Assembly (NCBI GenBank): GCA_964634935.1
Contig: CAZWJT010000007.1
Span: forward strand, 13,808-77,807
Length of the DNA stretch: 64,000 nucleotides
Source: an uncultured Planctomycetia bacterium
Lineage (GTDB): Bacteria; Omnitrophota; Gorgyraeia; Duberdicusellales; Duberdicusellaceae
Direction of reading: 5' to 3'
The notes under the pieces are model-generated. The model did not search any database and had not been told where the DNA came from. It saw nothing but the letters and a program-made list of their open reading frames with translations. The position numbers and the translations under genes are program-made. Below, piece by piece: positions 27,808-52,006 of the stretch (its first letter is position 1; the number at the start of each line of letters is the position of its first letter).

Positions 27808-27809
27808 GT

Positions 27810-30147: not shown

Positions 30148-30201
30148 GAGAGATGGCGGGATTGCTATGCGCAAGCTCCATTGATACTTTAGGGGCATAG
30201 T

Positions 30202-34528: not shown

Positions 34529-34584
34529 GAATGGAGTTCTTTTCTTTCCCGGTTTTTCTTTTATAATAGGGAACACTGTAATGT

Positions 34585-35277
34585 ATGTTGGAGAAAAAGA
34601 TGCACGATAAAAAAATATCTGTGGTAATTCCCGCACGCAATGAAGCTCCTACTATTTGTGAGATTATCAGCGAAGCCAAGAAAGTTGCCTGGGAAGTGTT
34701 GGTAATCGATGGTAATTCGTCTGACGATACCGCTTCTTTGGCCGTTCAGGCTGGAGCGCGTCTTATTCGGGATGAGGGAAAAGGAAAAGGACGAGCTGTC
34801 CGTTTGGGAATTCAGGAAGCACAGGGCGATGTTATTGTATTTATTGATGCTGATGGTTCACATGACCCACGGGATATCTCCCGTCTCGTCCAGCCGATCT
34901 TTGATGATACTGCAGATATGGTGATTGCTTCACGGAGTACAGGCGGGAGCGATGAGCTTCATGGGACAGTCAATAAATTTTTGAGGCTCATTGGGAGCGA
35001 AATTATAACGCTTATTATCAATATTCGTTTCCGACAAACATTGACAGATACCCAAAATGGATTTCGCGCACTTCGAGCCCCAGCCGCAAAGAGTATTCGG
35101 CTTACTGAAAATATCACCACGATAGAGCAAGAGATGGTAATTAAGTTTTTAAAGAAGAACTACCGGATTGTTGAAGTTTCAAGTCACGAGTATGAGCGGA
35201 AATATGGTAAATCAGTAATCGTACTCAGGCGCGTTTGGTTTCGCTATGTGTATTCTGTTATAAAAAATATTTTTTAA
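34585..35277 (+). CDS. Glycosyltransferase family 2 (Dpm1/polyprenyl-phosphate sugar synthase-like)
   Basis: KISVVIPARNE…VIDGNSSDDT…FIDADGSHDP (DxD) motifs. Confidence 0.8.
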   Translation: MLEKKMHDKKISVVIPARNEAPTICEIISEAKKVAWEVLVIDGNSSDDTASLAVQAGARLIRDEGKGKGRAVRLGIQEAQGDVIVFIDADGSHDPRDISRLVQPIFDDTADMVIASRSTGGSDELHGTVNKFLRLIGSEIITLIINIRFRQTLTDTQNGFRALRAPAAKSIRLTENITTIEQEMVIKFLKKNYRIVEVSSHEYERKYGKSVIVLRRVWFRYVYSVIKNIF

Positions 35278-35278
35278 T

Positions 35279-39096: not shown

Positions 39097-40387
39097 CACA
39101 GGCTATTCTTTTTACCGCGTGCTTCTTACTACGCTTTTGATCCTTTTTTCTTGTGCCCGTTATTACGATACCATGGTTTCTTCGGTGCTTCCTGCTGAGT
39201 GTGGTGATTTTGCTGCCGTGTACGCTGGCATCAAGAATATGTCGTCCGGCGTGAGCCCTTATTCGGCTTCCGGGGGTACCTTTTATACTGGAAAATCATT
39301 TCTTACTACTACCTATAATTATCTTCCCTTTTACGGAACAATGCTTTGGTTTTTCAATAATTTTGAATATCGGACCGCACGGTATCTTTGGATCTTCTTC
39401 AATCAATTCTTTTTAGGGGTTTTACTCTATCTTTTGTTTCGCCTTTTGCGTGTTTATAAGAAGAATGCCGATTTTTTTGATTTTGCAATACTCTTTGCGC
39501 TGTTGTTTAACTTTCATCCGTTGATAACAGGTCTTACGATGGGGCAGAACCACATTTTGCTTTTGGTGATTTTTTTAAGTATGTTTCTTGCCGCATTGAG
39601 CGGCCGCGATTTTATCGCAGGTATCGTGCTTGCGCTTCTTATTTTGATTAAGATCAATTTTGGTTTTTTTCTTGTTTTTTTCCTGCTTAAGAAGCGCTGG
39701 AAAATTCTCTGGGGAACTTGTGTCGGTTGTGTCCTTGGGGTCATCGGATCATGCCTTTTAGTCAGCCCGCAATTTTATCTTGATTTTTTTAGTGACATGC
39801 TTCGGCGCATCGAACGGAATAAAGTAATTTTTTATGATCCGAATACACAGGCGTTATCGAGTTTTCTGGTGCGGGTCTTTTGGAGCAATGAATATGGAAG
39901 TATTTTTTCATTGCCGTTCTGGTTTGTAAAGCTTCTTGTCACGGTAAGCTGTCTTTGCGTTTGTGGGGTGACATTTTTCTTGGTATCATTGCGCCGGACT
40001 ATTCTCTCGCGCCAAGTAAGAGATTTCCTGGAGTGTTCGTATGTGCTTTTTTGCGTACTACTCGTTTCTCCCTATGCCTGGCGTCATTACTTTTTCTGGC
40101 TTCTTTTTTTGTTTCCGGTTGGATTCTATATTTTTCGGGGTACCGGGAATCCGGATAAAACAACATTCTTGGTGCTTTTTTTTGGTTACTCTTTTGTCGC
40201 CGTCAATCCGTTCTATCTGCTTGTTGATTTCCTAAAAGACATTCTTGGTCCGGAGATGTTTTATTCTTCGGCAATCATGGCAAAGCCTTGGACGCTTCTG
40301 CTTGATTACGGATATTTTTATATTTTAGGGATGCTTTGGCTGTATTTCAGTTTCTTTTTATTCCATGCGCGGGATCGTAACCGATAA
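39074..40387 (+). CDS. GT87/DUF2029-like polyprenol-phosphate-dependent membrane glycosyltransferase
   Basis: Polytopic membrane protein; …LILIKINFGFF… region resembles DUF2029/GT87. Overlaps both neighbours. Confidence 0.5.
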   Translation: MSVERTIDTGYSFYRVLLTTLLILFSCARYYDTMVSSVLPAECGDFAAVYAGIKNMSSGVSPYSASGGTFYTGKSFLTTTYNYLPFYGTMLWFFNNFEYRTARYLWIFFNQFFLGVLLYLLFRLLRVYKKNADFFDFAILFALLFNFHPLITGLTMGQNHILLLVIFLSMFLAALSGRDFIAGIVLALLILIKINFGFFLVFFLLKKRWKILWGTCVGCVLGVIGSCLLVSPQFYLDFFSDMLRRIERNKVIFYDPNTQALSSFLVRVFWSNEYGSIFSLPFWFVKLLVTVSCLCVCGVTFFLVSLRRTILSRQVRDFLECSYVLFCVLLVSPYAWRHYFFWLLFLFPVGFYIFRGTGNPDKTTFLVLFFGYSFVAVNPFYLLVDFLKDILGPEMFYSSAIMAKPWTLLLDYGYFYILGMLWLYFSFFLFHARDRNR

Positions 40388-42125
40388 AGCCCAAATCATT
40401 GTGGTAACCCGATTATTTGTATTTTGGTTTCAGAAGTTACATGAAAGACCAGGATGGTTTGTTGCCGCGTTTCTTTTTATTTTTTTGAGTATCTGCATAA
40501 GTAGTATGCTGCAAACTTCCGCCACTTTTGATGAAACTTTTCATATCACCGAAGGGGTCTACCCGTTTACGAATGCCCAGCTTTCGGTTATCTTTGAGCA
40601 TCCGCCATTAGTGCGCACCTATGCGGCACTTCCCTTGATTTTTTTCCAGAAACAGCTGCAGCTTCAATGGCCGCAGGAAAAACACAGTTATCAGAAATTC
40701 TGTGATGAGTTTGTTTGGGGTGCGAACAAAAAGAATAGCCTTTTGATCATTTTCTTAGGCCGGGTTATGATCGTTTCGCTTGGAGTTTTGCTCGGTTTTT
40801 TTATTTTCAAGTTTGCTGCGCTTCTTTTTGGATCCCAAGCTGGCATTTTTGCGCTTTTTTTATATGTGTTTTGTCCAAATTGTATTGCTCACAGCCGGTT
40901 GATTACTACTGATATCGGAGGAGCCTGTTTTTCATTCATTGCGTTGTATTTTTTCTGGAAATTCTTATTTCGGAGATTCTCAACAAATATTTTTTTATTT
41001 GGCCTTTTTCTCGGGTTTGCCTGTTCAGCAAAATATTCAGCGCTTTTCCTTTATCCTTTTGCTTGCGGAGGGGTTATGTTTTTTACGGCGAGAGGAAGCC
41101 GCAAAAAATATTTTTCCGGACTACTTGGGGCTTTTCTGGTCAGTTTTTTTGTTATCTGGGCAAATTATGGTTTTCAGCTGAAAACGCTTACTACAAAAGC
41201 AGAGAGGCCGCATTTTGCCTTGGACAATCTTCCAATCCCGGAATTCGGAAAAACTCTTGCGTATGGAGTCGTCGAAAACCTGTATTTTCCCTGGGATTTT
41301 TTCAAGGGGATTTACGGTTTATCCAAGCATAACCTTGGAGGGCATCCGAGCTATATCCGAGGAATATACAGCCGGAGCTCGGTTTGGTACTATTATCTCT
41401 ATGCGTTGTTTTTGAAAACTCCCATACCGGTGCTTGTTCTTTTTCTCTGGGTTTTTTGGATTACGGTAAAGCGTTGGCGCGATCAACCAAAGCTTTTTCT
41501 GCTCTATGCGCTGGGTGTTTTTTTCGGAGTATCGTTTTTAAGTAAACAGCATGTTGGTATCCGTCATGTTATTCTGCTCTATCCCATACTGTTTGTTTTT
41601 ATCAGCAGTTTGATCCGGAGTCTGGTCTGTCGCGTGCATTCTTTAAAAATTGCAAAGATCATTGTGCTCATTGTCCTGTGCGGCTGGTATGTTTTTGAAA
41701 GTATGACCCATTGGCCTGATTATTTAAGTTACTTTAATAACGTTATCGGGAAAAGAGAAAATGCCTATCGGCATCTTGTTGATTCCAATCTTGACTGGGG
41801 GCAAGGATTATTCCAGTTAAAAAAATTCATGGACAGGGAAAATATCTCTAGAATAAAGCTTGTTTACTTTGGAACAGCCCGGCCCGAAGCCTATGGTATT
41901 AACTATGAACTTCTTCCTTCGACTTTCGCGCAGCATTTGGTCCGGGTCGGACAGGCATGTCCGGGCGATTTTGGATCTATCCCTGCGCGTGGTATTCTCG
42001 CGGTTAGTGCAACGGATTTAACGGGTGTTTATATCGGCGGCCCCGGAACATATTCCTGGCTTAGAAACTATACTCCTTGGGAACATTTATCCGGCTCGAT
42101 ATTCATCTATAGGATTCCAAATTAA
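40365..42125 (+). CDS. GT-C fold glycosyltransferase, PMT_2/ArnT family (protein O-mannosyltransferase-like)
   Basis: First-loop TFDETFHITEG matches the PMT/ArnT catalytic DE motif; more than 10 TM helices and a C-terminal soluble domain. Confidence 0.65.
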   Translation: MRGIVTDKAQIIVVTRLFVFWFQKLHERPGWFVAAFLFIFLSICISSMLQTSATFDETFHITEGVYPFTNAQLSVIFEHPPLVRTYAALPLIFFQKQLQLQWPQEKHSYQKFCDEFVWGANKKNSLLIIFLGRVMIVSLGVLLGFFIFKFAALLFGSQAGIFALFLYVFCPNCIAHSRLITTDIGGACFSFIALYFFWKFLFRRFSTNIFLFGLFLGFACSAKYSALFLYPFACGGVMFFTARGSRKKYFSGLLGAFLVSFFVIWANYGFQLKTLTTKAERPHFALDNLPIPEFGKTLAYGVVENLYFPWDFFKGIYGLSKHNLGGHPSYIRGIYSRSSVWYYYLYALFLKTPIPVLVLFLWVFWITVKRWRDQPKLFLLYALGVFFGVSFLSKQHVGIRHVILLYPILFVFISSLIRSLVCRVHSLKIAKIIVLIVLCGWYVFESMTHWPDYLSYFNNVIGKRENAYRHLVDSNLDWGQGLFQLKKFMDRENISRIKLVYFGTARPEAYGINYELLPSTFAQHLVRVGQACPGDFGSIPARGILAVSATDLTGVYIGGPGTYSWLRNYTPWEHLSGSIFIYRIPN

Positions 42126-42236
42126 ACTGTAGAGCCCAAAAAATCCTTAAGAGATGTTGATTTCTTAAGGTTGATTTTTGATTGGTAAACCTTGATTATT
42201 CTCCATAGTATGTGGTATACTGAACCGGTGGGTTAG

Positions 42237-43829
42237 ATGAGGCAGTTCATAAAAATAGTATGGTTCTCTATTCTACTCTTAGAGGTATCTTTTGTTTATT
42301 GCGAGAACAGCATCTCTGTTGATTCATACTTTCCTATTCCCGAACAGCAGTATCGAAACCTTAAAGCCGAACAGTTTTCTTCCGTAAATACTGAGGTGCG
42401 GATTGCTTTCCAGAAATATGACCCGTCCGGCCAGCTTGTTTTCCAGGCATCTCGTAATCCGCTCGCTAAGAACGCGACGAATTTTCCCATCGCAGGCTCC
42501 ATACCTTTTACGAGCGACGGCAATGTCTATTCGGCTTTATTCAAGCCGCTTACCATTGCTGATCTTACCCAGCCAAACCAGCCGCTCAATGTGCCATTTG
42601 GTAACAAGGAAATTATTACGAATGCCATCGAGAATGTCGAGTTTCTAAGCGATGGGAGCACGAATCCCGATGGTTCAGTCCGGGGGATTTCGACGTGGCC
42701 GGGGATGGGAACATGCGAAGAGGTAAACGGGCAATTTTATATCGGTATGTACCAGGCAAACTGCGGTGACTCGGCGTACCTTGCTTGGCTCAATGAATCA
42801 TCAGGTTTTTATGTCGCAGCCGGAGTGGGTATGGGCTGGGCAAGTCCTTTGTCAGCGCTTGGTATGGGAGTAGTCGGCATCAAGATGGGCACGATTGATT
42901 ATAAATGCTGCAGGCTTCAGGAGAACCGTCCGATTCCTCAAGGAGAAAATCTTCAGGATTGCCGTCCCTTGGCAAATCAGGTGCAGCAGATTTCCGATCA
43001 GATTAAAGGTTATTACGATGGATACTATGATGCATTTAATGATGCATGGAACCGAGGCTGTTTCCGGACAACAAATCCTCCGGCATTGATCAAAACATAT
43101 ACGCATGGGGCGCGTACCGGGCAGTGGAGAGGGTGTGACCGGTATACTTGGGCGTGTCAAACCCCGCAATGCCAGGGCGCTTGCACAACCTGTAATACGT
43201 GTACCTACACGGAAACCATTACCCATACAGGTCCAGATGCGTCGTGTGGATGTGCAGCGTATAATTCATGTGATTATCCGTGTACGCAGTGGGCTTGGGG
43301 AGAAAATGATTGTGGTAATTGTGGCAATTATTGTTCTCTTTATTGGTGTAACTGGTGTTGGCAGGGGATTTTCTATCTACCGAATTGTGCGGTCTGCGGT
43401 ACGGGTGCTTGCGCACAGTGGTCATGCAACAGCTGTTGGTATTCGTATACAGGAACATGCAATGGTCCGCATTCTTCCTGTGGCTGTGGTACCTATAATT
43501 CCTGTTCGCATAGTCATACTTCAACGGTTACCAATGCGAACTGCACGCAATGCGGGTGTGCGGCGTATTCCCAGGTGTGCTGTCCAAATCCAGGAGAAGG
43601 AAATGTTACCAATGGTTGGAATTGGACGATTACGGATGATGGCTGCGGTGTTGGAAATAAGCCGCAGTGCGAAGCTGATATCGCGATTCTCGACGGAAAT
43701 ACAAGTGGTCTTGACGCTCTGAAACAGGCATATTTTGATGCAAAGCAAGCTCTTTGTAATTGTGCCTGTCAGGGCAGTCCTCAAATGGCGTCTTGCGTTA
43801 ATTCTTGTTTTGAGGGGATGAGGGAATAA
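42237..43829 (+). CDS. Cassette A, type-1: secreted Cys-rich protein (~530 aa), unknown family
   Basis: Signal peptide, then SVDSYFPIPE motif; conserved WPGMGTCE, GVGMGWASPLSA, YKCCRL blocks; C-terminal region packed with CGC / YNSC repeats. Confidence 0.65.
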   Translation: MRQFIKIVWFSILLLEVSFVYCENSISVDSYFPIPEQQYRNLKAEQFSSVNTEVRIAFQKYDPSGQLVFQASRNPLAKNATNFPIAGSIPFTSDGNVYSALFKPLTIADLTQPNQPLNVPFGNKEIITNAIENVEFLSDGSTNPDGSVRGISTWPGMGTCEEVNGQFYIGMYQANCGDSAYLAWLNESSGFYVAAGVGMGWASPLSALGMGVVGIKMGTIDYKCCRLQENRPIPQGENLQDCRPLANQVQQISDQIKGYYDGYYDAFNDAWNRGCFRTTNPPALIKTYTHGARTGQWRGCDRYTWACQTPQCQGACTTCNTCTYTETITHTGPDASCGCAAYNSCDYPCTQWAWGENDCGNCGNYCSLYWCNWCWQGIFYLPNCAVCGTGACAQWSCNSCWYSYTGTCNGPHSSCGCGTYNSCSHSHTSTVTNANCTQCGCAAYSQVCCPNPGEGNVTNGWNWTITDDGCGVGNKPQCEADIAILDGNTSGLDALKQAYFDAKQALCNCACQGSPQMASCVNSCFEGMRE

Positions 43830-43832
43830 AAG

Positions 43833-44801
43833 ATGGGTATACAAAAAAATATTTTTTCTGTTTTTTTCTGCACTCTTGGCATTGTAACTTTTTTCGCATA
43901 TGCACAGGAAGCGCAAACCATTCGGGTAACTACATATTATCCGTCGCCAAATGTAAAAACATTGTCGCTGATTGTTCAGGATATGGAAGTTCGCAAAACC
44001 ACCGAAACGAGCATGGTGCCGCGTTTAGAGATCCCTGTAGGTGGTGTTTTTTATGTCGACAGCCCGGTTGCAGGGAGTGCTTTTCGTATTGATAGCGCTG
44101 GGGTTTCTTTCTCCGAGAATGCTTATGTTCATGAGACGATAGGATACCAGTGTGTTCGAAGCAATAATAACAGGGTTTGCAGCGGTAATGTTACCACGGG
44201 AAATTTAACGCCGCGGTCTTTTAATGGGAATGCTTCATATCTTCGTTTGAATGGTATCGCGTTGCATTCAATGCCGGTATTGGTTTTAAATGAAGAGGGG
44301 AATACCAGAATTCATAATGATTACCAGGGGATGCAGAACGCAACAAATACTTTGACCAATACCTATCCGCTTGCGCAGGATGCCTGTGCTATGTGCGAGA
44401 TGTGCGAACAGAAAGAAACGACGGCTTTAAAGAATGCGTGTTATACAGCGGAAAACTGCAATGCAGGATACATCAATGCCGACAGGAATTTTGATCTCGC
44501 GGCATGTTTAAATACGGCAAAAACCATTGCCACAAATACCCTTGGAACGCTTACCTATACCAACGCGCAAGGTCGTTTTTCGAATAAAAAAGGTATTTTC
44601 CGGATGACGAAGACTGGCGAGTATGCCTTTGGCGGTGGAGTAGGCGTGGGCATTGGCGGGCACTTTGGAGCTGGGGTGGGAGCTCTTTTCGGCACAAATA
44701 CAAAACCTGCTCCAGGCTGGCTTGGTTTTATTCCGACAGGTGATCCGGCAAAAAGTTTTGGTTATAAAACATTTCAGTATCAAACAAAGGATCCGCAGTG
44801 A
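43833..44801 (+). CDS. Cassette A, type-2: secreted protein (~320 aa), Gly-rich C-terminus, unknown family
   Basis: Signal peptide, RVTTYYPSPN motif, CAMCEMCE block, GGGVGVGIGGHFGAGVGALFG and YKTFQY near the C-terminus. Confidence 0.65.
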   Translation: MGIQKNIFSVFFCTLGIVTFFAYAQEAQTIRVTTYYPSPNVKTLSLIVQDMEVRKTTETSMVPRLEIPVGGVFYVDSPVAGSAFRIDSAGVSFSENAYVHETIGYQCVRSNNNRVCSGNVTTGNLTPRSFNGNASYLRLNGIALHSMPVLVLNEEGNTRIHNDYQGMQNATNTLTNTYPLAQDACAMCEMCEQKETTALKNACYTAENCNAGYINADRNFDLAACLNTAKTIATNTLGTLTYTNAQGRFSNKKGIFRMTKTGEYAFGGGVGVGIGGHFGAGVGALFGTNTKPAPGWLGFIPTGDPAKSFGYKTFQYQTKDPQ

Positions 44802-45421
44802 GAGTAAGTTTAGTGTCAAAAATTTTGTTTTTCATAGTATGCTGCATAGTGAGCGCGGTTCATCCGTGCGGGATGGTTTTGGCGAATGACGAAACAGTCA
44901 ATATTTCGACTTTTTATCCTTCTCCCAAAGGGATTTATGACCGTATCGATGTGGTGAATGCCGGTGGAATTTCTGGAAGCGCTCTTATTGGTAATACCCT
45001 GAAGATGATTAATACCGACCCAGCGGGAACCGTGGTTGATGGTCCGGGAACAGATATTGATAAGGATGGTAATATTAAGTCCAAGGCTTTTGCTTTTTTG
45101 GGGCAGAAATACTATACGCCGACTCTCAGGGCTCGCTCTTTAACCGTGACCCAGAATTCTCAGTGGCGGATTCCATCTTGGCAGGTGGAAGTGGGCGCAT
45201 TAGATTGGGGAGTTGTTCTTGCGAGCTTAGCCTTTAGCATCGATCAGACTGCAGAGTGTCCAAATGGCCTGGTGAATTCGATTACTAATTTAAGTGGTAT
45301 CTCACCCTTTTGTTTGGGAGTACCTGTGTCATTAAGCCCGCCGGTAGCAATAGTGCTGTGCGTGGGCCAGGAAAAGTTTATTCTTGGGTATAGCTGTTTG
45401 AATTTATATGCTCAAAATTAA
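44798..45421 (+). CDS. Cassette A, type-3: secreted protein (~205 aa), unknown family
   Basis: GTGA overlap with the previous gene; signal peptide, ISTFYPSPKGIYD motif, GQKYYTPTLR, LSGISPFCLGVP blocks. Confidence 0.6.
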   Translation: MRVSLVSKILFFIVCCIVSAVHPCGMVLANDETVNISTFYPSPKGIYDRIDVVNAGGISGSALIGNTLKMINTDPAGTVVDGPGTDIDKDGNIKSKAFAFLGQKYYTPTLRARSLTVTQNSQWRIPSWQVEVGALDWGVVLASLAFSIDQTAECPNGLVNSITNLSGISPFCLGVPVSLSPPVAIVLCVGQEKFILGYSCLNLYAQN

Positions 45422-45464
45422 GAAAAAAATCACAAGCAGGAAAAATCTGATATAATATAACCAT

Positions 45465-47030
45465 ATGCGGAGCAAGATAACCAGTGTGATTCTCCGAATC
45501 TATCAAAGAGGGGGTATACTTGGTTTTGTTTGTTTGATGCTTTTCTGTTCTTTGTCTTCCGCAAGCACCCTCACCGTCGATACATATTTTCCAGCTCCAG
45601 AAGTACGTTATCGTAAAGTTTTAGCCCAAGAGGTAGTTTCTAAACGCACTGAAATTGATGGTCGTCTTATCAAATATGATGAATTAGATGGAACAAAGAT
45701 TGTTCTTGAGATCGCAACAACCCCTCTGACGAAAGCCGCTTTTTCTGCGGAAGCAAAAACATTCACCAGCGATTCTGATATTGTCGTATCTCTTTTTAAA
45801 CCGCTTACCGTGCCCGCTTCTTCGCTCAATAATGCCAAGATTTATGTAAACGCAGTTGAAGATTTGATTTCTTTTAGCGATGGAGCAAACCGTATTGGAA
45901 TATGGCCCGGCCTTGGGTCCTGTGAACGGCAAAGTTTTCTTTTTCTTGGTTATTACACCGTTGATTGCGGAGATGGCGCGTATCTCGCCTATATTCAAGA
46001 GAGTTCAGGTATTTATTTTGCTATCGGCGGAGGTATGGGTTGGGCGAGTCCTCTTTCAGCGATAGGAACTGGATTCGGCATAAAATCCGGAAGCGTTGAT
46101 TATATCTGTTGCCGGTTGGATCAAAATGCGGTTATTCCTATTGGAAGCGGTAATATGAGTTGCGGAGTAGAAGAGACTGAGGTAAAAGACGCAAAGACCA
46201 GAGTAGATATAAAGCAGCAAGAATATAATGCGGCTTTTGATGCGGCAAAAGCCGCTGGCTGTTTTCGAGAGATGGGAGTAGGCGGTACAAAATACCATAC
46301 AAATTGGCCCGCTCCTGGAGTTGATGTTTCTTATGAGAAGACCTGGTTAGACGGCACAAACGTGGAACAGGAGTTTGGCAGATGGCTTGGTTGCAGTATG
46401 TATACCTGGGAATGCCGCGCACCAGCTGATGCGATATGTAACGGTAGTTGCAACACGTATTGTACATGTCAGAATTCTGCTTGTGGCTGTTGTGCTTCGG
46501 TGTGTACAGCGTATTGCGCTTGTTCAAGCTGTGGCTGTTGTTCTTCCACATGTACTTCGTATTGTTCTTGTGCTACTGCTGCTTGCGGCTGCGCGACTAA
46601 AGACCCAAAAACAGGAGCATGCACATCGTATAACACATGTCAGAATTCTGCTTGTGGCTGTTGTGCTTCGGTGTGTACTGGGTATTGCGCTTGTTCAAGC
46701 TGTGGCTGCTGTGCTACTGCCTGCACTTCGTATTGTTCCTGCGCTACTTCTGCTTGTGGCTGTTGTGTCTATAACAAAGTTTGCTGTGCTAATCCTGGAG
46801 AAGGGGTTGGAGGAAGCGGTTGGCGGTGGTACGAAGACCAGAACGGCGCATGTAACCGCGCTAACTGCAATAGCTTGATTTCTACTCTTTCTTCTGCAGG
46901 GCAGGCTTTGCGAGATGAAAAGGCAAACTACGAAAATAAGAAACGTTCTTATTGTACTTGTGTTTGTAACGCGCTGGGCAACCCCGGCGAACCGTGCATC
47001 AGTACTTGTATGGTGAGCAATCAGTTATAG
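45465..47030 (+). CDS. Cassette B, type-1: secreted Cys-rich protein (521 aa) with internal 57-aa tandem repeat
   Basis: Signal peptide, TVDTYFPAPE motif, WPGLGSCE, GGGMGWASPLSA, YICCRL. Two CGCC-rich 57-aa repeats; VCCANPGEG near the C-terminus as in A1. Confidence 0.65.
   Translation: MRSKITSVILRIYQRGGILGFVCLMLFCSLSSASTLTVDTYFPAPEVRYRKVLAQEVVSKRTEIDGRLIKYDELDGTKIVLEIATTPLTKAAFSAEAKTFTSDSDIVVSLFKPLTVPASSLNNAKIYVNAVEDLISFSDGANRIGIWPGLGSCERQSFLFLGYYTVDCGDGAYLAYIQESSGIYFAIGGGMGWASPLSAIGTGFGIKSGSVDYICCRLDQNAVIPIGSGNMSCGVEETEVKDAKTRVDIKQQEYNAAFDAAKAAGCFREMGVGGTKYHTNWPAPGVDVSYEKTWLDGTNVEQEFGRWLGCSMYTWECRAPADAICNGSCNTYCTCQNSACGCCASVCTAYCACSSCGCCSSTCTSYCSCATAACGCATKDPKTGACTSYNTCQNSACGCCASVCTGYCACSSCGCCATACTSYCSCATSACGCCVYNKVCCANPGEGVGGSGWRWYEDQNGACNRANCNSLISTLSSAGQALRDEKANYENKKRSYCTCVCNALGNPGEPCISTCMVSNQL
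46455..46796 (+). repeat. In-frame tandem direct repeat, 171-bp period, two copies at about 90% identity
   Basis: TGTCAGAATTCTGCTTGTGGCTGTTGTGCTTCGGTGTGTAC… recurs at 46467 and 46638; it encodes the Cys-rich TCQNSACGCCASVCT.YCACSSCGCC… units of protein B1. Confidence 0.85.
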
Positions 47031-47033
47031 CGT

Positions 47034-47933
47034 ATGAAAAAAGAATATTTGCGCTTTATTGTTCTTTTCTGGTGGTGCATTTTTTTCTCTGGTTACGCTT
47101 TTTCTCAAAACCAAGAGATAAGGATGAGCACGTACTATCCTACGCCTAATCTTGATGCAAACCAGTTTTTTGTTGATGAAGTTGATATCGAGAAAACAAC
47201 TCCAAAGACAACCCCGCCTTCATTTCGCATTGAGCAGGGCGGAGAGTTATTTGTAGGTACGGATAACGCAAACCGGATTCTTACGATCAATAATGCCGGA
47301 GTTTCCGCAAACGGAAATTCCTATGTTGAAGAAACCATAAGCTATGAGTGTGATCTTGCAACCGGCATATGTTCCGGAAGTTTAGCAACAAAAGATATGG
47401 AGCCGCGAGCCTATGGCGGCCAGTCTCCTTACATACGGTTAAGCGGTATTGCGCTCTATAGTATGCCGAGGTTGGTTGAAGTCGCGAATGATTGGACCTC
47501 AATGACCGACGGGGGAATTTTGAATGCGGTCAATGATGCGAATAATTACCTGCGCAATGTTTATCCAACAACCCGGCAAGGTTGTTTTACCTGCGAAGCC
47601 TGTGAATTGGAGAGTGATCCAGTAGCCTGTTTTACGGCGCATGGGTGCGGGTATGTGGCAGGGGAAGCTTTTGATTTAACGTTGTGCCTTACCGACACAT
47701 CCAATTTGGCAGGAGGTCATTTTGACGCAATGCTTGAAGATCCCGCGGCAAATCCCGGATATTCGCGGGAACGAGGCGTGCATGGGTTGACTAAGAATGG
47801 CGAATGGGCTGCTGGGATTGGTATTGGCGGTGTTTTAGGCGGGCATTTTGGCATTGGAGGCGCTATTCTTTTCGGTGGTGGAACACCGATGAATCGAAGC
47901 TATAACACCTTTGAATATAATTATAAAGAATAA
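47034..47933 (+). CDS. Cassette B, type-2: secreted protein (299 aa), Gly-rich C-terminus
   Basis: Signal peptide, RMSTYYPTPN motif, CFTCEACE block, GIGIGGVLGGHFGIGGAILFGGG and YNTFEY. Confidence 0.65.
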   Translation: MKKEYLRFIVLFWWCIFFSGYAFSQNQEIRMSTYYPTPNLDANQFFVDEVDIEKTTPKTTPPSFRIEQGGELFVGTDNANRILTINNAGVSANGNSYVEETISYECDLATGICSGSLATKDMEPRAYGGQSPYIRLSGIALYSMPRLVEVANDWTSMTDGGILNAVNDANNYLRNVYPTTRQGCFTCEACELESDPVACFTAHGCGYVAGEAFDLTLCLTDTSNLAGGHFDAMLEDPAANPGYSRERGVHGLTKNGEWAAGIGIGGVLGGHFGIGGAILFGGGTPMNRSYNTFEYNYKE

Positions 47934-47934
47934 G

Positions 47935-48633
47935 ATGAAATCGCCATTGAATCAAAAGATGCTCTTTCGGGTGCTTGCGCTTTTGGCATTCCTTTCTATG
48001 GCCCATACTAGTTCTTTTTCTCAAGGAACTGATGAGGAAGTCATCATTTCGCCCTTTTACCCGTCACCGAAGGGAATTTATGATAATCTGGAAGTCGTCA
48101 CTGATTTAATATTGGATCCTGGCCAAGACGGACGGGTTGGCGAAGGGGTATTGAAAATTGCCGGAGGAGCGCCTACTCCGTCAGGACAAGGATTAAACGC
48201 TCCAGGGATTTTGATGACAACCCCTACTTTTCCGGGAGAAAAGATAACCAGGATTAAAGAAGATGGTTCTCTGCGCGCCTCAGGTTTCCAATTTATTGGC
48301 GATAAATACTATACGAAAACATTAAGAGCCGGAGAGCTTGTGCTTACTGACAGCACGGGGGCATGGAAAGTTCCTACGCTCCAGATTGATAACGCTGAAT
48401 GGCTTGGAGGCTGGAGTGATCCCCGGTGGGGTGTCGGGTTTGGAAGTTCTACGAGTTTTGATTGTAACGACGGAGGTAATTTAGGATTTATCGGAGGCGT
48501 CCAAAACCTCAGCGGAATTATGCCGTGGTGTATCGGTATTCCTATTCCTCCAGATTTTTGTATAGCTGTTCTTTTGTGCGCGGGAGAAGAGCAGTTTATT
48601 ATGAGCTATAAATGCATTCGTCCTCAGTATTAA
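47935..48633 (+). CDS. Cassette B, type-3: secreted protein (~232 aa)
   Basis: Start set at ATG 47935, just after the B2 stop. Signal peptide, ISPFYPSPKGIYD motif, GDKYYTKTLR, LSGIMPWCIGIP. Confidence 0.6.
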   Translation: MKSPLNQKMLFRVLALLAFLSMAHTSSFSQGTDEEVIISPFYPSPKGIYDNLEVVTDLILDPGQDGRVGEGVLKIAGGAPTPSGQGLNAPGILMTTPTFPGEKITRIKEDGSLRASGFQFIGDKYYTKTLRAGELVLTDSTGAWKVPTLQIDNAEWLGGWSDPRWGVGFGSSTSFDCNDGGNLGFIGGVQNLSGIMPWCIGIPIPPDFCIAVLLCAGEEQFIMSYKCIRPQY

Positions 48634-48647
48634 AAAAGGAGAAAGAC

Positions 48648-49172
48648 ATGATCAAGAAAACCTTGTGGCTATTTCTGTTGACTTGTTCGTTTGGTTTTTC
48701 GTGTTTTGCGGTTTCTGATCCTATTGACATTAAAAATAATGTTCTTGATAAATTGGATATCCCTGTGTATCCTTCGATGCAATCGCCCGAGGCTTACGGG
48801 ATTTCGCTTAATTATACCCTGCAGGATACTTGCGTTGATTGCGTTATTTCTTTCTTTAAAACAGAACTCAAGAAAAAAGGCTGGAAGGTTGATGACGAAA
48901 AACTTGACCGAAGTTTTCAGGAGGCTTTTAGCAAGGTTCGCGGTCAGCTTGAGGGAATGCAAGGAAGTTATCCGCAGGGTTTTGATACGAAAACAGCAGA
49001 AGCGATACTTTCCGGGAAGAACGACAGTTACATTAAGGAACAAATTAAGAAAATGTCTCCAACGGTGATTGAGGCAAGAAGAGAAGAAGACGGGATCATT
49101 TGCCGTATTTTTATCCATGGAACTTCGGGGACCCAGGGAATGAAAATAACTTTAACGCTTTCTGCCCAATAA
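48648..49172 (+). CDS. Secreted hypothetical protein (174 aa) inserted between cassettes B and C
   Basis: Good SD AAAGGAGAAAG; signal peptide; lacks the (Y/F)(Y/F)P-x-P N-terminal motif of the cassette proteins. Confidence 0.5.
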   Translation: MIKKTLWLFLLTCSFGFSCFAVSDPIDIKNNVLDKLDIPVYPSMQSPEAYGISLNYTLQDTCVDCVISFFKTELKKKGWKVDDEKLDRSFQEAFSKVRGQLEGMQGSYPQGFDTKTAEAILSGKNDSYIKEQIKKMSPTVIEARREEDGIICRIFIHGTSGTQGMKITLTLSAQ

Positions 49173-49178
49173 TACTGA

Positions 49179-50558
49179 ATGCGGTTGACGCTTGACAGAT
49201 GCTCTAAAAAAACATCGTGCGGTGTTTTTTTAGGGCTTTTGTTCTTTGGGGTAGGTTTTTGCGGTTATACCGCCTATGCGGCAAACGATCTTACTGTCGA
49301 TACCTATTATCCCGCTCCAGCGTTAAATTACAAAGAAGCAAAGGCTCATGATTTTTCTTCACGCGATACTGAGGTAAAGAAGAAGATTGAGAAGCAAGAC
49401 CGGGCTTTTCTTGCTTCGGTTGATTCCCTGGATAAGAATCAATTTCCTACAGCTGGCGCAAAGGATTTTACAGACGCAGCTGATTCAATCTATATCGGAC
49501 TCTTCCGTGATTCTTCAAATGCATCCAATGTACGTCCTTTGCGCGTATTGAACGGAGCAGCGTTCGCCCCTACATCATCGCTCATTATCAATAAGGCGCG
49601 GCATGTATCGTATCTTACTGAAAACGGGGAAACAATGAGTATGTGGCCTGGATTAGGACGATGTGCTTCCCGTAGTATTTGGAAGCTCATTGCCGGATTC
49701 GCCCAGTGTGCCAGCGATGAATATCTCGCAGATTATTCGGAAAGTCCTGGTTTGTATCTTGGTGGTGGCGTAGGAAGCGCCAGCATGGGCAATATGGGTG
49801 GGGGAATTGGCTTTAAAATGTCGACGATTAACTATACCTGCTGTAAGTTGCGAGGAGATGAAGAGCCGGTAACCAGTATAGACGGATGTGTTACAAAACA
49901 AAATGACGCCGAGACAGCACGGCGTAATCTGGATCTTGCCAAATGCAGGTATATCCAAGCGATTCGTGATGCAAAAGCCGCAGGGTGTAATCACAGCAGA
50001 GATTTTGCTTGTTTCGGGAACAGTTGTCAAGATACAGGGGCGACCTGCACAAAGCGATTTGAAGATATGTCTATTAATGAAAACGCTTGTCCGTATTTAT
50101 TAAGCGGGCAACCTGTACCGTCGCCTCTACCGGCTGATTCAAGAATGCCCAGTCTTTTAGCTTTACTTGGGCTTATACCTTCAGAACCTCCCTCTATATG
50201 TTATGCAGGATGCACCGAATGTTCAACGTTCTGTTGTGGGTATGATTCAGCGGGGTTTTGTACCTCAACCTGCTGTAATTCTTGGGACGTCTGCAACGAG
50301 GCGGATTGTCAAAGTCGGATTGCAGATATAGACCAGAAAAAACAAGATATTGAGAATGCCCGGGCGCAGCTGAGGAATGTGCTCGAGGATTTATGTAATA
50401 CGTGCGTCTGCGGCCGCTGGGATGGTATTCGTTCTGAGATTGAAGCTTTCGTCCCTGGTTTGGATCTTGCCGGTTACATCGGTTCCTTGCTCAATCCGGG
50501 AGAATCTCTCTGTGATAATATGTGTAGTACTCAGATGCTTGACGCCGCGATACAATAA
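49179..50558 (+). CDS. Cassette C, type-1: secreted Cys-rich protein (459 aa)
   Basis: Signal peptide, TVDTYYPAPA motif, WPGLGRCA, YTCCKL, C-terminal LCNTCVCG as in A1/B1 (LCNCACQG / YCTCVCN). Confidence 0.65.
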   Translation: MRLTLDRCSKKTSCGVFLGLLFFGVGFCGYTAYAANDLTVDTYYPAPALNYKEAKAHDFSSRDTEVKKKIEKQDRAFLASVDSLDKNQFPTAGAKDFTDAADSIYIGLFRDSSNASNVRPLRVLNGAAFAPTSSLIINKARHVSYLTENGETMSMWPGLGRCASRSIWKLIAGFAQCASDEYLADYSESPGLYLGGGVGSASMGNMGGGIGFKMSTINYTCCKLRGDEEPVTSIDGCVTKQNDAETARRNLDLAKCRYIQAIRDAKAAGCNHSRDFACFGNSCQDTGATCTKRFEDMSINENACPYLLSGQPVPSPLPADSRMPSLLALLGLIPSEPPSICYAGCTECSTFCCGYDSAGFCTSTCCNSWDVCNEADCQSRIADIDQKKQDIENARAQLRNVLEDLCNTCVCGRWDGIRSEIEAFVPGLDLAGYIGSLLNPGESLCDNMCSTQMLDAAIQ

Positions 50559-50571
50559 TGGTGGCATAGTT

Positions 50572-51405
50572 ATGAAAATGAACGTTCAAAAAAAAGTAAG
50601 TATCCTCAAGTGCTTTCTCTATTGTTTTTTAGTTATTATTTCTGGTAGCGCGTACGCTGAAGGACAAGAAGTGCAGATGACTACTTTTTATCCGACGCCA
50701 AACGCGGTAACCAAGAATTTCATCGTTGATATTCTTCATATCGAAGATACGACGGGGGTTCCTGGCCCGGTTTTTACCATTACCACGGAAAGTGGAGTTG
50801 ACGGCTGGCTTAAGTTACGAGGAACAAATAGCTCAGGTGTTTTAACAGATGTTCTTGAAATAAATAATCTGGGGCTTGTTTTTCGCAAAAATGCGTACAG
50901 TGATGAAACCAGGGCTTATCCTTCAGTCCAACAACCCGGGATACTGGAACTACGACAATTTGGAACAGGGTCAGATTCTACTCCTGCTATTGAACTCAGA
51001 GGTATCCCTTTGACGCATACTCCGGAACTTGTTGTTTCTGTAAACCCATTCCGCAATAATTTTAATCCATTTAGTGATACTTTTTTTACACAGTATGATG
51101 ATCTGCAAAACGGTTGTTTATCCGCGGGGGGCGATCCCGAAACTTGCTTACAACTTTTAACTCCAATAGGCCGAGCAAGTTTTGACGTGATCACTGCTCC
51201 GTATGCGATTCCGGCATCAGAAAAATATTCTTCGCGGAAAGCGCTTTTCCTCTTGAACCAAACTCCAGAAACTGTTTTTGGGGTTGGGATATATTGTGGC
51301 ACAGGGAATGGCTGGGGTCCGGGTGCGGGTATACTTTTTGGGTTTGGAGGCGGCACAAACGCGCTCTATAAAACATTTAAGTACAGCGTGTATACGGGGA
51401 ATTAA
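50572..51405 (+). CDS. Cassette C, type-2: secreted protein (~277 aa)
   Basis: Start set at ATG 50572; the track ORF from 50377 overlaps C1 and is rejected. Signal peptide, QMTTFYPTPN, G-rich GILFGFGGG and YKTFKY. Confidence 0.6.
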   Translation: MKMNVQKKVSILKCFLYCFLVIISGSAYAEGQEVQMTTFYPTPNAVTKNFIVDILHIEDTTGVPGPVFTITTESGVDGWLKLRGTNSSGVLTDVLEINNLGLVFRKNAYSDETRAYPSVQQPGILELRQFGTGSDSTPAIELRGIPLTHTPELVVSVNPFRNNFNPFSDTFFTQYDDLQNGCLSAGGDPETCLQLLTPIGRASFDVITAPYAIPASEKYSSRKALFLLNQTPETVFGVGIYCGTGNGWGPGAGILFGFGGGTNALYKTFKYSVYTGN

Positions 51406-51406
51406 A

Positions 51407-52006
51407 ATGAGCATGAAAGTCGTTCAACAGTTCTGTATCGTAGCCGTCATTTTTTCTTTACAGGCGATTGTATCTGCCGCGGATGAAACGATACAACTTA
51501 CGCCGTTTTATCCTTCGCCGAAAGGTATCTATAATAGCGTACGCACCACTGAACTGACGACGGTTCAGGATAGTTTGCTGTTATCACAAGATGCGGAATT
51601 AAAATATCATAACGGGAGTTCTTCTCTCAACAACGACAGATTTCTGACAAATCGGCTTTCCTTCAATGGAGAAAAGTACTATACTCCGATACTGAAGACG
51701 CAGATTTTGGATGCGTCTGATATTCTTCCGGCGACAGGCGACTGGAAAGTTCCGCGACCAAGTATTAATTTGCCTTCCATTCCTGCTCTTGCGTTGGGGG
51801 CTTTTACCGGCACGGTCGTGTGCGGTCAAAGCGAGGTGATTAACAGCGTTATTTCAATAAGTACGGCTGTCGGTTTTTGTGTCCCGATTCCTATCGGCGG
51901 CATGGGAGGAACGATGCCAGTTATCTGTCTCGGCCGAGAGGACTTGAAGCTTTTTGGTAGCTGTATGAATACGGATTTAAGTGAAACAGGAATTACCGCT
52001 TTTTAA
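51407..52006 (+). CDS. Cassette C, type-3: secreted protein (~199 aa)
   Basis: Start at ATG 51407, 1 nt after the C2 stop. Signal peptide, LTPFYPSPKGIYN, GEKYYTPILK, VICLG. Confidence 0.6.
   Translation: MSMKVVQQFCIVAVIFSLQAIVSAADETIQLTPFYPSPKGIYNSVRTTELTTVQDSLLLSQDAELKYHNGSSSLNNDRFLTNRLSFNGEKYYTPILKTQILDASDILPATGDWKVPRPSINLPSIPALALGAFTGTVVCGQSEVINSVISISTAVGFCVPIPIGGMGGTMPVICLGREDLKLFGSCMNTDLSETGITAF

What the first reader, a model, noticed from the sequence alone, without database searches (positions are those of the whole stretch)
42237..52006. Three tandem paralogous three-gene cassettes of secreted proteins with no recognisable family
Genes come as A1-A2-A3, B1-B2-B3, (extra gene), C1-C2-C3. 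Within each position the proteins are clearly homologous but strongly diverged. Type-1 share WPG(L/M)G.C, GGGMGWASPLSA and CC(R/K)L blocks. Type-2 share a CxxCExCE block, a Gly-rich GG.GGHFG.G..LFG segment and YKTF.Y. Type-3 share FYPSPKGIY, KYYT..L and LSGI.P.C.G.P. All nine have signal peptides. Genes are tightly packed, including a GTGA overlap and 1-3 nt gaps, so the set looks co-transcribed with the upstream GT-C genes. The order is maintained through triplication, which argues for a functional three-component module such as a fibre, adhesin or surface-layer unit. I recognise none of these domains.
Basis: seen in the sequence. Interest (0 to 1): 0.9.

Follow-up and report, generated by a model that had tools for sequence, protein, structure and literature searches.

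The report
Triplicated orphan secreted-protein cassette, shared N-terminal tag
Three diverged copies of a rare, fast-evolving gene cassette encode exported proteins of unknown families that all start with the same short N-terminal tag, most likely parts of a cell-surface structure, but no function has been shown.

Summary
Window 42237-52006 holds three sets (A, B, C) of three exported proteins (T1, T2, T3), 26-36% identical within a type, plus one extra gene, X. None matches Pfam, NCBIfam, PHROGs, PADLOC or PDB sequences.

- The unit is a four-gene cassette, T1-T2-T3-X. X is conserved elsewhere; here it follows only set B.
- The cassette occurs, in the same order, in at least nine other metagenomic lineages. 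One has the same downstream uvrB; the other neighbours differ, and none of the flanks recovered (several cut short by contig ends) has the GT-C genes. T1 has a sigma-70-like promoter in nearly every lineage checked. The proposed co-transcription with the GT-C genes is therefore not supported.
- All 35 T1/T2/T3 and related sequences examined carry one tag about eight residues after the likely signal-peptide cleavage site: (A)DE-x-h-x-[IV]-[TS]-T-[YF][YF]-P-x-P-x-x-x-Y. The same tag heads a Peptidase_S74 "tail-fibre" protein and two small proteins elsewhere.

Best reading, inferred and not shown: co-assembling, disulfide-rich envelope or surface subunits. The tag would be a common assembly, anchoring or sorting element. 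T1 would display a hypervariable Cys-rich insert. X would be a shared helper. Both structure predictions failed (pLDDT 35-37).

The parts
42145..42170 (+). Terminator-like hairpin followed by a T-run, downstream of the last GT-C gene
   Evidence: Consensus scan. Consensus-level evidence only.
42192..42221 (+). Sigma-70-like promoter, TTGATT-18-TATACT with TG extension, upstream of A1
   Evidence: Consensus scan. Equivalent TGnTATACT-type elements lie upstream of T1 in most of the other lineages checked.
42237..43829 (+). A1, type-1 protein (530 aa). Layout: signal peptide, N-terminal tag, conserved ~250-aa N-domain, helix, Cys-rich insert (43 Cys in the whole protein), C-terminal helix/Cys module.
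   Evidence: T1 HMM E = 3e-119.
42303..42368 (+). N-terminal tag of A1 (ENSISVDSYFPIPEQQYRNLKA)
43833..44801 (+). A2, type-2 protein (322 aa). Layout: signal peptide, tag, Gly-rich FG.G.G..GGHFG.G segment, YKTF.Y near the C-terminus.
43911..43976 (+). N-terminal tag of A2 (EAQTIRVTTYYPSPNVKTLSLI)
44798..45421 (+). A3, type-3 protein (207 aa). GTG start overlapping the A2 stop. Three Cys invariant across 8 lineages.
44888..44953 (+). N-terminal tag of A3 (DETVNISTFYPSPKGIYDRIDV)
45429..45456 (+). Promoter-like site, ATCACA-16-TATAAT with TG, in the 43-nt gap before B1
   Evidence: Consensus match only.
45465..47030 (+). B1, type-1 protein (521 aa, 54 Cys)
45561..45626 (+). N-terminal tag of B1
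46449..46762 (+). Direct duplication inside B1, 171-nt period (46449-46591 and 46620-46762, 87% identical). This is a duplicated 57-aa Cys-rich module.
   Evidence: The Logan contig L001 ends inside it.
47034..47933 (+). B2, type-2 protein (299 aa)
47109..47174 (+). N-terminal tag of B2
47935..48633 (+). B3, type-3 protein (232 aa from the ATG; the ORF also opens at TTG 47911)
   Evidence: (P0002 = 232 aa)
48031..48096 (+). N-terminal tag of B3
48648..49172 (+). X, the fourth cassette member (174 aa; alternative ATG at 48612). It has a signal peptide but no tag. There is one copy for the three sets.
   Evidence: Homologs lie after T3 in L006, L009, L011 and L016 at 26-41% identity. X HMM E = 2e-76.
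49179..50558 (+). C1, type-1 protein (459 aa, 29 Cys)
   Evidence: (P0010)
49281..49346 (+). N-terminal tag of C1
50572..51405 (+). C2, type-2 protein (277 aa from ATG 50572; the public gene call is 297 aa from an upstream GTG)
   Evidence: (P0008)
50662..50727 (+). N-terminal tag of C2
51407..52006 (+). C3, type-3 protein (199 aa)
   Evidence: (P0003)
51482..51547 (+). N-terminal tag of C3

Best explanation
The region holds three diverged sets of a lineage-restricted, fast-evolving four-gene cassette, T1-T2-T3-(X), transcribed from its own promoter(s).

**What I think it does (inferred, not shown)**
- T1, T2 and T3 are exported by Sec and are cut at an AxA-type site a few residues upstream of a shared ~20-residue tag. 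In most sequences the mature chain would then begin (A)DE-x-h-x-[IV]-[TS]-T-[YF][YF]-P-x-P-x-x-x-Y.
- The three proteins of a set then co-assemble into a disulfide-stabilised envelope or cell-surface structure, such as a fibre, adhesin complex or coat.
- The tag would be the common assembly or anchoring strand, or else a sorting signal. It is also used by other surface proteins, such as S74 trimeric fibres.
- T1 would present a hypervariable Cys-rich insert, flanked by two predicted helical segments, as the exposed variable part.
- The single X would be a set-independent periplasmic helper.
- The three sets would give alternative or variant versions of the structure.

**What is shown**
- The gene families, the gene order, the tag, how rare the cassette is, how fast it evolves, and that the sets duplicated as whole units.
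For: **The unit and its distribution**
- The cassette is real and duplicated as a unit. Paralogy E-values run from 1e-17 to 1e-70. The trees for T1, T2 and T3 agree, with A+B as sisters.
- The cassette is conserved in order elsewhere.
  - L004 has T1-T2-T3.
  - L006/L007 have T1-T2-T3-X followed by uvrB, as in the window.
  - L009, L011 and L016 have T1-T2-T3-X.
  - L008, L013 and L019 have T1 then T2, cut by the contig end; L015 is cut just after T1.
- Tight or overlapping junctions are conserved, which suggests coupled, stoichiometric expression.

**Export and disulfides**
- Each protein has an N-terminal hydrophobic leader with an AxA site and no other membrane-spanning segment.
- Conserved Cys are typical of extracytoplasmic disulfides: at least 8 invariant in T1 and 3 in T3.

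**The tag**
- Pro is at the first proline position in 35 of 35 sequences and at the second in 33 of 35, at a fixed distance from the likely cleavage site.
- In the window, [FY][FY]PxP occurs in ORFs of at least 80 aa only in the nine cassette proteins.
- Profile-profile similarity between the families is significant but confined to the leader-plus-tag region plus at most a few tens of residues after it (28-63 aligned columns): 95.6-98.5% probability.
- The same tag heads a 540-aa protein with a C-terminal Peptidase_S74 domain, a 169-aa protein (L011) and a 130-aa protein in an Omnitrophota MAG.
- S74 fibres in Bdellovibrio are surface-located trimers. Their conserved post-signal N-terminal domain is proposed to bind an unidentified surface element (PMC10769870). 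This is an analogy only.

**Signs of exposure and diversification**
- UvrB is 66% identical between the window and the L006 organism, but the cassette proteins are about 27-31% identical.
- The T1 insert ranges from nearly absent to roughly 150-200 aa. B1 carries a recent 57-aa duplication.

**X**
- There is one X for three sets, and X has no tag.
Against: - Nothing here shows localisation, assembly or interaction.
- Both AlphaFold runs were uninformative (pLDDT 35.1 and 36.5), so no fold supports a fibre or a donor strand.
- No dedicated export or assembly machinery (usher, secretin, sortase, T9SS) is conserved next to the cassette. GspA/ExeA-like genes sit beside it only in L008/L009.
- L004 lacks X.
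- The tag could equally be a modification site or a purely structural N-terminal cap.
- Fast evolution also fits secreted effectors.
- The taxonomy of the source is not established. Omnitrophota is only a hint, from one tag-bearing protein.
Confidence: 0.45

Rival explanations
1. The nine proteins are the glycoprotein substrates, S-layer-like, of the adjacent glycosylation machinery (three GT-C enzymes directly upstream, Wzy_C, STT3). The Thr/Ser/Tyr-Pro-rich tag would be the glycosylation site. This does not exclude a surface-structure role.
For: - In the window the cassettes follow PMT_2, GT87 and PMT_2 genes. These sit within a Wzz / Wzy_C / GT2 / GT9 / radical-SAM locus, and an STT3 gene lies 8 kb downstream.
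- The tag is rich in T, S, Y and P.
- From general knowledge: S-layer glycan clusters often sit next to their structural genes, and PMT-type enzymes act on Sec-translocated chains.
Against: - None of the other recovered cassette loci has GT-C or other glycosylation genes beside it. The neighbours are uvrB, POR, CODH/ACS, polA, PPIase and GspA-like genes, though several flanks are cut short.
- A terminator-like hairpin and a separate promoter-like site lie between the GT-C gene and A1.
- No Ser, Thr or Tyr position in the tag is invariant. The residue between the two prolines is A, I, V or L in most T1 proteins.
Confidence: 0.15
2. They are secreted effectors or toxins aimed at a host or prey cell. 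T1 would be a Cys-knotted active component and T2/T3 would be accessory or delivery proteins. The cassette would diversify in an arms race.
For: - They evolve very fast relative to housekeeping genes.
- T1 has a Cys-rich, repeat-expanding region.
- The locus carries multiple diverged copies.
The taxonomy of this organism is not established.
Against: - Triplets co-duplicate in strict order, and translational coupling is conserved. That fits stoichiometric partners better than independent effectors.
- In several lineages the T1 Cys-rich insert is nearly absent while the rest is conserved.
- The tag is shared with a structural fibre protein.
- No toxin, enzyme or defence domain was detected.
Confidence: 0.15
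3. They form a non-exposed, disulfide-cross-linked periplasmic or outer-membrane scaffold. This would work like the chlamydial cysteine-rich outer-membrane complex, giving envelope rigidity rather than adhesion.
For: - T1 is Cys-rich (6-10% Cys), and T2 and T3 have conserved Cys.
- T1 and T2 have Gly-rich hydrophobic segments that resemble glycine zippers. I judged this by eye.
- T2 ends in an aromatic-rich stretch (YKTF.Y).
Against: - There is no match to chlamydial OmcA, OmcB or MOMP, or to glycine-zipper Pfam families.
- Such extreme sequence divergence and a hypervariable insert are unusual for an internal scaffold.
- The T2 C-terminus is not a canonical terminal beta-signal: the protein does not end on the aromatic residue.
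Confidence: 0.15
4. The Cys-rich T1 regions are substrates of the upstream radical-SAM/SPASM enzymes, giving thioether-type cross-links as in ranthipeptides and sactipeptides.
For: Two radical-SAM genes, one with a SPASM domain, lie 5-7 kb upstream. T1 has dense CxxxC patterns.
Against: - The radical-SAM genes score far below every curated peptide-maturase cut-off.
- Three GT-C genes separate them from the cassettes.
- They are absent next to the cassette in other lineages.
- T1 proteins are 340-530 aa and Sec-exported, and several lack the Cys-rich insert.
Confidence: 0.03

Closest known systems
Multi-pilin gene clusters (type IV pilus or T2SS minor pilins; sortase pili such as Corynebacterium SpaABC/SpaDEF/SpaHIG)
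   Same: Several different subunit genes sit in a fixed order. They share a short conserved N-terminal element, or a sorting motif in the sortase pili. They can occur as several paralogous clusters per genome, and they are exported and assembled outside the cytoplasm.
   Different: The leader is an ordinary Sec-type signal with an AxA site, not a class III prepilin leader. There is no N-methylation motif, no hydrophobic pilin helix, and no C-terminal LPxTG signal with an anchor. No prepilin peptidase or sortase is nearby. There is no sequence similarity.
Bdellovibrio MAT (mosaic adhesive trimer) fibres and other Peptidase_S74 'tail-fibre' surface proteins (PMC10769870)
   Same: These are a set of different surface proteins with a conserved element directly after the signal peptide and variable distal parts. 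In L011 an S74 fibre protein carries the very tag found on T1-T3 and sits next to the cassette.
   Different: T1-T3 have no S74 domain and no beta-helix repeats. The shared element here is about 20 residues, not a ~130-aa domain. I could not test homology to the MAT N-terminal domain because no MAT sequences were available.
Chaperone-usher and type V pili (donor-strand assembly through an N-terminal extension)
   Same: The exposed N-terminal segment alternates hydrophobic and polar residues (h-x-h-T-T-Y-Y), which could act as a donor strand. There are several subunit types per operon.
   Different: No usher, PapD-like chaperone or lipoprotein-type pilin precursor is present. No Pfam fimbrial domain was found. 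The strand role is pure inference.
Cysteine-rich variable surface proteins (Giardia VSPs) and the chlamydial cysteine-rich outer-membrane complex
   Same: They have high Cys content with short-period CxxC/CxxxC patterns, large sequence variation and multiple paralogs.
   Different: There is no homology. The hosts and protein architectures differ. The Cys-rich part of T1 is an optional insert.

Membership tests
Type IV pilins / T2SS pseudopilins | Class III leader cleaved at G|F(T/S)L(I/L)E, an N-methylation motif (Pfam N_methyl), and a hydrophobic N-terminal helix in the mature protein | tested here: not met
   There are no Pfam or NCBIfam hits. The leaders are n-h-c type with AxA. The sequence after the likely cleavage site is polar, not hydrophobic.
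Chaperone-usher fimbriae | Usher and PapD-like chaperone genes in the operon, and a fimbrial subunit domain | tested here: not met
   No such Pfam domains occur in the cassette proteins, in the 64-kb window or in the related loci.
Sortase-assembled pili / LPXTG surface proteins | A C-terminal LPxTG motif followed by a hydrophobic segment and a basic tail, plus a sortase gene | tested here: not met
   There is no C-terminal LPxTG and no C-terminal hydrophobic segment. No sortase was found in the window.
Curli / functional amyloid | Curlin repeat subunits (CsgA/B) encoded together with CsgE/F/G | tested here: not met
   The cassette proteins have no Curlin_rpt hit. A CsgG-family gene exists at 9735-10481, but it is 32 kb away and has no csgA/B/E/F.
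S-layer proteins | A recognised S-layer or anchoring domain (SLH, or an S-layer family HMM) | tested here: not met
   There are no hits in Pfam or NCBIfam. Many S-layer proteins have no family, so a function of that kind is not excluded.
T9SS / PEP-CTERM / other C-terminal sorting cargo | A C-terminal sorting domain (T9SS CTD, PEP-CTERM, etc.) | tested here: not met
   There are no Pfam or NCBIfam hits. The C-termini are listed.
Chlamydial cysteine-rich envelope proteins (OmcA/OmcB) | A match to the Chlam_OMP6/OMP3 families | tested here: not met
   No Pfam hit at E <= 1.
MAT / S74 trimeric fibres | A conserved ~130-aa beta-rich N-terminal domain after the signal peptide, a trimeric beta-helix shaft, and an S74 or other tip | tested here: not met
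   T1-T3 have no S74 domain and no fibre repeats. Only the neighbouring L011 540-aa protein does. Homology of the tag to the MAT N-terminal domain could not be tested with these tools.
Radical-SAM/SPASM-modified peptides (ranthipeptide/sactipeptide/SCIFF) | A short leader-bearing precursor without a signal peptide, plus a cognate maturase that is conserved next to it | tested here: not met
   The proteins are 200-530 aa with Sec leaders. The nearby rSAM genes score below all maturase cut-offs and are not conserved with the cassette.
T1-T2-T3-X cassette family (defined here) | A T1 N-domain (WPG.G.C ... G.K.G..Y.CC), then T2 (Gly-rich FG.G.G ... YKTF.Y), then T3 (three Cys, C.[IV]P[IV] ... C.G.E), each with the N-terminal tag, in that order | tested here: met
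   HMM hits at 1e-62 to 1e-119 for all nine window proteins. The same order is found in the loci where those genes are recovered: T1-T2-T3 in L004, L006, L008, L009, L011 and L016, and T1-T2 in L013 and L019.

The most novel reading that the evidence does not exclude
The ~20-residue segment that follows the signal peptide, (A)DE-x-h-x-[IV]-[TS]-T-[YF][YF]-P-x-P-x-x-x-Y, is a previously undescribed N-terminal sorting or assembly signal. It would be an N-terminal counterpart of C-terminal signals such as the T9SS CTD or PEP-CTERM. It would direct unrelated cargo (T1, T2, T3, S74 trimeric fibres, small proteins) to one surface-attachment system in a clade of uncultivated, possibly Omnitrophota-related bacteria. 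T1-T2-T3-X would be the core or base of that system, and the triplication would provide interchangeable variant surfaces.
Probability: 0.25. Interest if true: 0.8.

Novelty: new variant of a known kind. Interest (0 to 1): 0.55.

Why it matters
**If the reading is right**
- It defines four new protein families and a new portable N-terminal tag. Together they would organise the cell surface of a poorly known group of uncultivated bacteria.
- In such bacteria, surface structures are thought to mediate attachment to hosts or prey.
- The tag would be a simple sequence handle for listing the surface proteome of these organisms.
- The single X gene and the co-duplicating triplets give a concrete, testable assembly model.

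**If it is wrong**
- The result is still a clean example of a rare orphan cassette with conserved synteny.
- Only about nine cluster representatives were found among 1.84 billion.
- It evolves much faster than the neighbouring housekeeping genes.

Tried and rejected
- **Family libraries.** Pfam, NCBIfam, PHROGs and PADLOC on all ten proteins, and Pfam on homologs and on X, gave nothing credible.
- **PDB.** Sequence-profile searches with 3- to 12-sequence profiles of T1, T2, T3 and X gave nothing better than E = 0.18.
- **Structure prediction.**
  - AlphaFold2 on T3 (3 sequences) gave pLDDT 35.1 and on T2 (4 sequences) 36.5. Neither model is usable.
  - I did not run fold search, because low-confidence models give meaningless matches.
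- **Word-index protein searches.**
  - T1 and T3 returned only proteins from the window itself.
  - T2 gave one outside homolog, P0009, which opened the trail.
- **Genome and metagenome scans.** Scanning for FYPSPKGI found only a 130-aa protein that shares the tag and nothing else.
- **Phage origin of the tag.** An IMG/VR scan for ITTYYP[ST]P gave two out-of-frame chance hits.
- **Literature.** There were no hits for the tag, for the accessions or for the run id. The supplements of the Bdellovibrio MAT paper hold no matching motif.
- **Taxonomy.** I could not establish it. The NCBI contig is not in the locus index, and the genome scan did not return the window's own genome.
- **Rejected readings.** I rejected three readings for the reasons given under the rival explanations and the membership tests.
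  - an assembly artefact
  - an operon with the GT-C genes
  - a radical-SAM RiPP system

Full report
**1. Observation**

- Set A: A1 42237-43829, A2 43833-44801, A3 44798-45421.
- Set B: B1 45465-47030, B2 47034-47933, B3 47935-48633.
- Extra gene X: 48648-49172.
- Set C: C1 49179-50558, C2 50572-51405, C3 51407-52006.

The gaps between genes are 3, -4 (GTGA overlap), 43, 3, 1, 14, 6, 13 and 1 nt.

Within each type the proteins are clearly homologous but far diverged.

| Type | A/B | A/C |
|---|---|---|
| T1 | 34%, E = 8e-70 | 31%, E = 6e-30 |
| T2 | 36%, E = 5e-50 | 26%, E = 4e-17 |
| T3 | 34%, E = 1e-36 | 26%, E = 6e-18 |

- Profile HMMs find exactly 3 T1, 3 T2, 3 T3 and 1 X in the six-frame ORFs of the window.
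- An independent Logan reassembly of run SRR12133403 is 100% identical to window 43194-46493, so the A/B junction is not an assembly artefact.
- The DNA copies are old: the best-conserved 51 nt are 73% identical.
- Each protein starts with a basic and hydrophobic leader ending in an AxA-like site, and has no other membrane-like segment. No dedicated signal-peptide predictor was available.

**2. No known family**

- Pfam, NCBIfam, PHROGs and PADLOC gave no hit that reached a curated cut-off or was otherwise credible for any of the ten proteins.
- PDB sequence-profile searches gave nothing better than E = 0.18, even with the later, deeper profiles.
- AlphaFold2 with the shallow alignments then available failed: T3 pLDDT 35.1 and T2 pLDDT 36.5. 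I therefore ran no fold search.

**3.

- All nine proteins carry [FY][FY]-P-x-P about 8 residues after the likely cleavage site.
- In the whole window this pattern occurs in ORFs of at least 80 aa only in these nine proteins.
- Over 35 sequences from all lineages and families, the consensus is AxA|(A)-D-E-x-[ILV]-x-[IV]-[TS]-T-[YF]-[YF]-P-[SAT]-P-x-[GV]-x-Y-x-x-[LV]. The first Pro is present in 35 of 35 and the second in 33 of 35.
- Profile-profile comparison shows where the families resemble each other: in the leader-plus-tag region, plus at most a few tens of residues after it.

| Comparison | Probability | Aligned columns |
|---|---|---|
| T2 vs T3 | 96.6% | 63 |
| T1 vs T3 | 95.6% | 51 |
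| Fibre/small-protein group vs T3 | 98.5% | 38 |
| Fibre/small-protein group vs T2 | 96.1% | 28 |

The tag is therefore a portable N-terminal element on otherwise unrelated proteins.

**4. Relatives**

- Word-index searches of 5.8 billion proteins returned only window proteins for T1 and T3. For T2 they returned one outside homolog, P0009 (E = 6e-24).
- The contig of P0009 (L004) carries the T1 C-terminus, then T2, then T3, followed by pyruvate:ferredoxin oxidoreductase genes.
- An exhaustive HMMER search of 1.84 billion cluster representatives with the T1 N-domain found just nine outside proteins, at E = 5e-41 to 1e-13.

Their contigs show the following.

| Locus | Content |
|---|---|
| L006/L007 | T1-T2-T3-X, then uvrB (same downstream neighbour as the window) |
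| L009 | T1-T2-T3-X, with a divergent GspA/ExeA-like AAA_22 gene and a weak T2SSC-like gene upstream, and PilZ genes downstream |
| L008 | The same divergent ATPase, then T1-T2 and the start of T3 |
| L010-L012 (Hainich groundwater) | Cyclophilin, T1, T2 (with an in-frame TAG), T3, X, then a 169-aa protein and a 540-aa Peptidase_S74 protein that both carry the tag |
| L016-L018 | CODH/ACS, T1-T2-T3-X, polA |
| L013, L015, L019 | T1, cut soon after by the contig end; the start of T2 is visible in L013 and L019 |

- X is conserved at 26-41% identity, has a signal peptide and has no tag. The ancestral unit is therefore T1-T2-T3-X, and the window has three T1-T3 sets but a single X.
- Genome and metagenome scans for FYPSPKGI found only a 130-aa tag-bearing protein, in a Candidatus Omnitrophota MAG and in its ortholog. 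This is the only taxonomic hint, and the source organism remains unplaced.
- IMG/VR holds no in-frame occurrence of the tag.

**5. Evolution**

- Neighbour-joining trees of T1, T2 and T3 all place A and B as sisters. C branches near the other lineages (D and E). The sets therefore duplicated as whole units, and the C split is old.
- UvrB of the window and of the L006 organism are 66% identical. Their cassette proteins are about 27-31% identical, and X is 36% identical.
- T1 consists of four parts:
  - a conserved ~250-aa N-domain;
  - a helix;
  - an insert that ranges from nearly absent (F1, G1) to roughly 150-200 aa of dense Cys patterns (A1, B1, E1);
  - a conserved C-terminal helix with a C-x29-C-x-C-x-C-x9-C-x3-C pattern.
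- B1 contains a 171-nt duplication at 87% identity, which shows that the insert is still expanding.

**6. Context and transcription**

- Upstream of the cassettes the window carries a surface-glycan locus. In order it holds Wzz/GNVR, a P-loop ATPase, Wzy_C, PMT_2, GT9, a B12-radical-SAM gene, GT2, two radical-SAM genes (one with SPASM), PMT_2, GT87 and PMT_2.
- Downstream lie uvrB, birA, coaX, groES/EL, another B12-radical-SAM gene and an STT3-type oligosaccharyltransferase.
- The 111-nt gap before A1 contains a terminator-like hairpin and a TTGATT-18-TATACT promoter-like site with TG.
- Comparable -10 elements, often with a TTGAC-type -35, precede T1 in most other lineages checked.
- None of the other recovered loci has GT-C genes next to the cassette, though several flanks are short.
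- The link to the GT-C genes is therefore local and not conserved. Co-transcription with them is not supported.

**7. Most likely mechanism**

Shown:
- The proteins have Sec-type leaders.
- Gene order is strictly conserved.
- Start/stop coupling is conserved.
- The sets co-duplicated as units.
- Conserved Cys are typical of extracytoplasmic proteins.
- One tag sits at a fixed short distance after the leader.
- The same tag is found on an S74 fibre protein.
- The proteins evolve very fast, and T1 has a hypervariable insert.

Inferred:
- T1, T2 and T3 of a set co-assemble into a disulfide-stabilised envelope or surface structure.
- The tag acts as a common assembly or anchoring strand, or as a sorting signal. 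Its alternating h-x-h-T-T-Y-Y pattern would suit a beta-strand.
- T1 exposes the variable Cys-rich tip.
- X, which has one copy and no tag, is a set-independent periplasmic helper.
- The three sets are alternative or variant versions of the structure.

The closest functional parallel is the Bdellovibrio MAT fibre family. Its conserved post-signal N-terminal domain is thought to bind an unidentified surface element (PMC10769870). This is an analogy only, and homology could not be tested. I put about 0.45 on the surface-assembly reading as a whole.

**8. Rivals**

- Glycoprotein substrates of the neighbouring GT-C enzymes. This is compatible with a surface role, but the linkage is not conserved and no hydroxyl residue in the tag is invariant.
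- Secreted effectors. Fast evolution fits, but the stoichiometric triplets and the optional Cys insert argue against it.
- A non-exposed Cys-cross-linked envelope scaffold.
- Radical-SAM-modified peptides, which is disfavoured.

**9. Comparison with known systems**

Every family I considered fails at least one defining feature that I could test (see the membership table). This covers type IV pilins, chaperone-usher fimbriae, sortase pili, curli, S-layer domains, C-terminal sorting cargo, the chlamydial Cys-rich proteins, S74/MAT fibres and RiPP precursors. The system resembles multi-subunit surface appendages in its logic, not in its sequence.

**10. Verdict**

- The finding is real and rare, and its families and tag are new. 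Its function is unproven.
- The conserved four-gene unit, the portable N-terminal tag and its link to S74 fibres still give a concrete, testable hypothesis.
- I score interest at 0.55.
- On novelty I file it as a new variant of a known kind (multi-subunit exported surface modules). I give 0.25 to the more novel reading, that the tag is a new sorting or assembly signal.

Noticed in passing
window 9165-11653: A CsgG-family outer-membrane channel lipoprotein gene lies at 9735-10481 (Pfam E = 1.6e-39). It is preceded by a 189-aa ORF with no family and followed by a TPR protein. It could be a secretion module. No curlin genes are present.
   Followed up: no
window 26197-42125 and 60318-62891: There is an unusually dense set of lipid-linked-donor glycosyltransferases: three PMT_2, one GT87, Wzy_C, and an 857-aa STT3/AglB-like oligosaccharyltransferase. 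Alongside them are Wzz/GNVR, GT2, GT9, two B12-radical-SAM genes and two further radical-SAM genes, one with a SPASM domain.
   Followed up: partly
window 46449-46762: A 171-nt-period direct duplication (87% identity) lies inside B1 and encodes a 57-aa Cys-rich module. The short-read Logan contig L001 breaks inside it.
   Followed up: yes
L011 2874-2876 (also L010, L012): The T2 gene of the Hainich groundwater lineage has an in-frame TAG in three replicate assemblies. Homology to T2 continues after it. It could be a pseudogene, a nonsense polymorphism or read-through.
   Followed up: partly
L011 4448-6603: Directly after the cassette lie a 169-aa protein and a 540-aa protein. The 540-aa protein has NT..G-type repeats and a C-terminal Peptidase_S74 domain. 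Both carry the same N-terminal tag, and they are 50% identical over their first ~150 residues.
   Followed up: partly
L002 10001-10393; L003 2131-2529: A 130-aa tag-bearing protein (ADENITITTFYPSPKGIF...) occurs in a Candidatus Omnitrophota MAG and in its ortholog, in conserved smpB - inositol monophosphatase synteny. A radical-SAM/SPASM gene lies about 650 nt downstream.
   Followed up: partly
L008 110-931 (-); L009 4471-5860 (-): A GspA/ExeA-like AAA_22 ATPase is transcribed divergently from the cassette in two sister lineages. In L009 there is also a Pro-rich 179-aa protein with a weak T2SSC match.
   Followed up: no
window 16668-17167: A cluster of three tRNA genes: Ala-GGC on the minus strand, and Leu-CAA and Glu-CTC on the plus strand.
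   Followed up: no
window 50377-50571: The public gene call for C2 (P0008, 297 aa) starts at an upstream GTG that overlaps C1. The ATG at 50572 gives a canonical leader, as in the homologs. Likewise, X more likely starts at 48648 than at 48612.
   Followed up: yes
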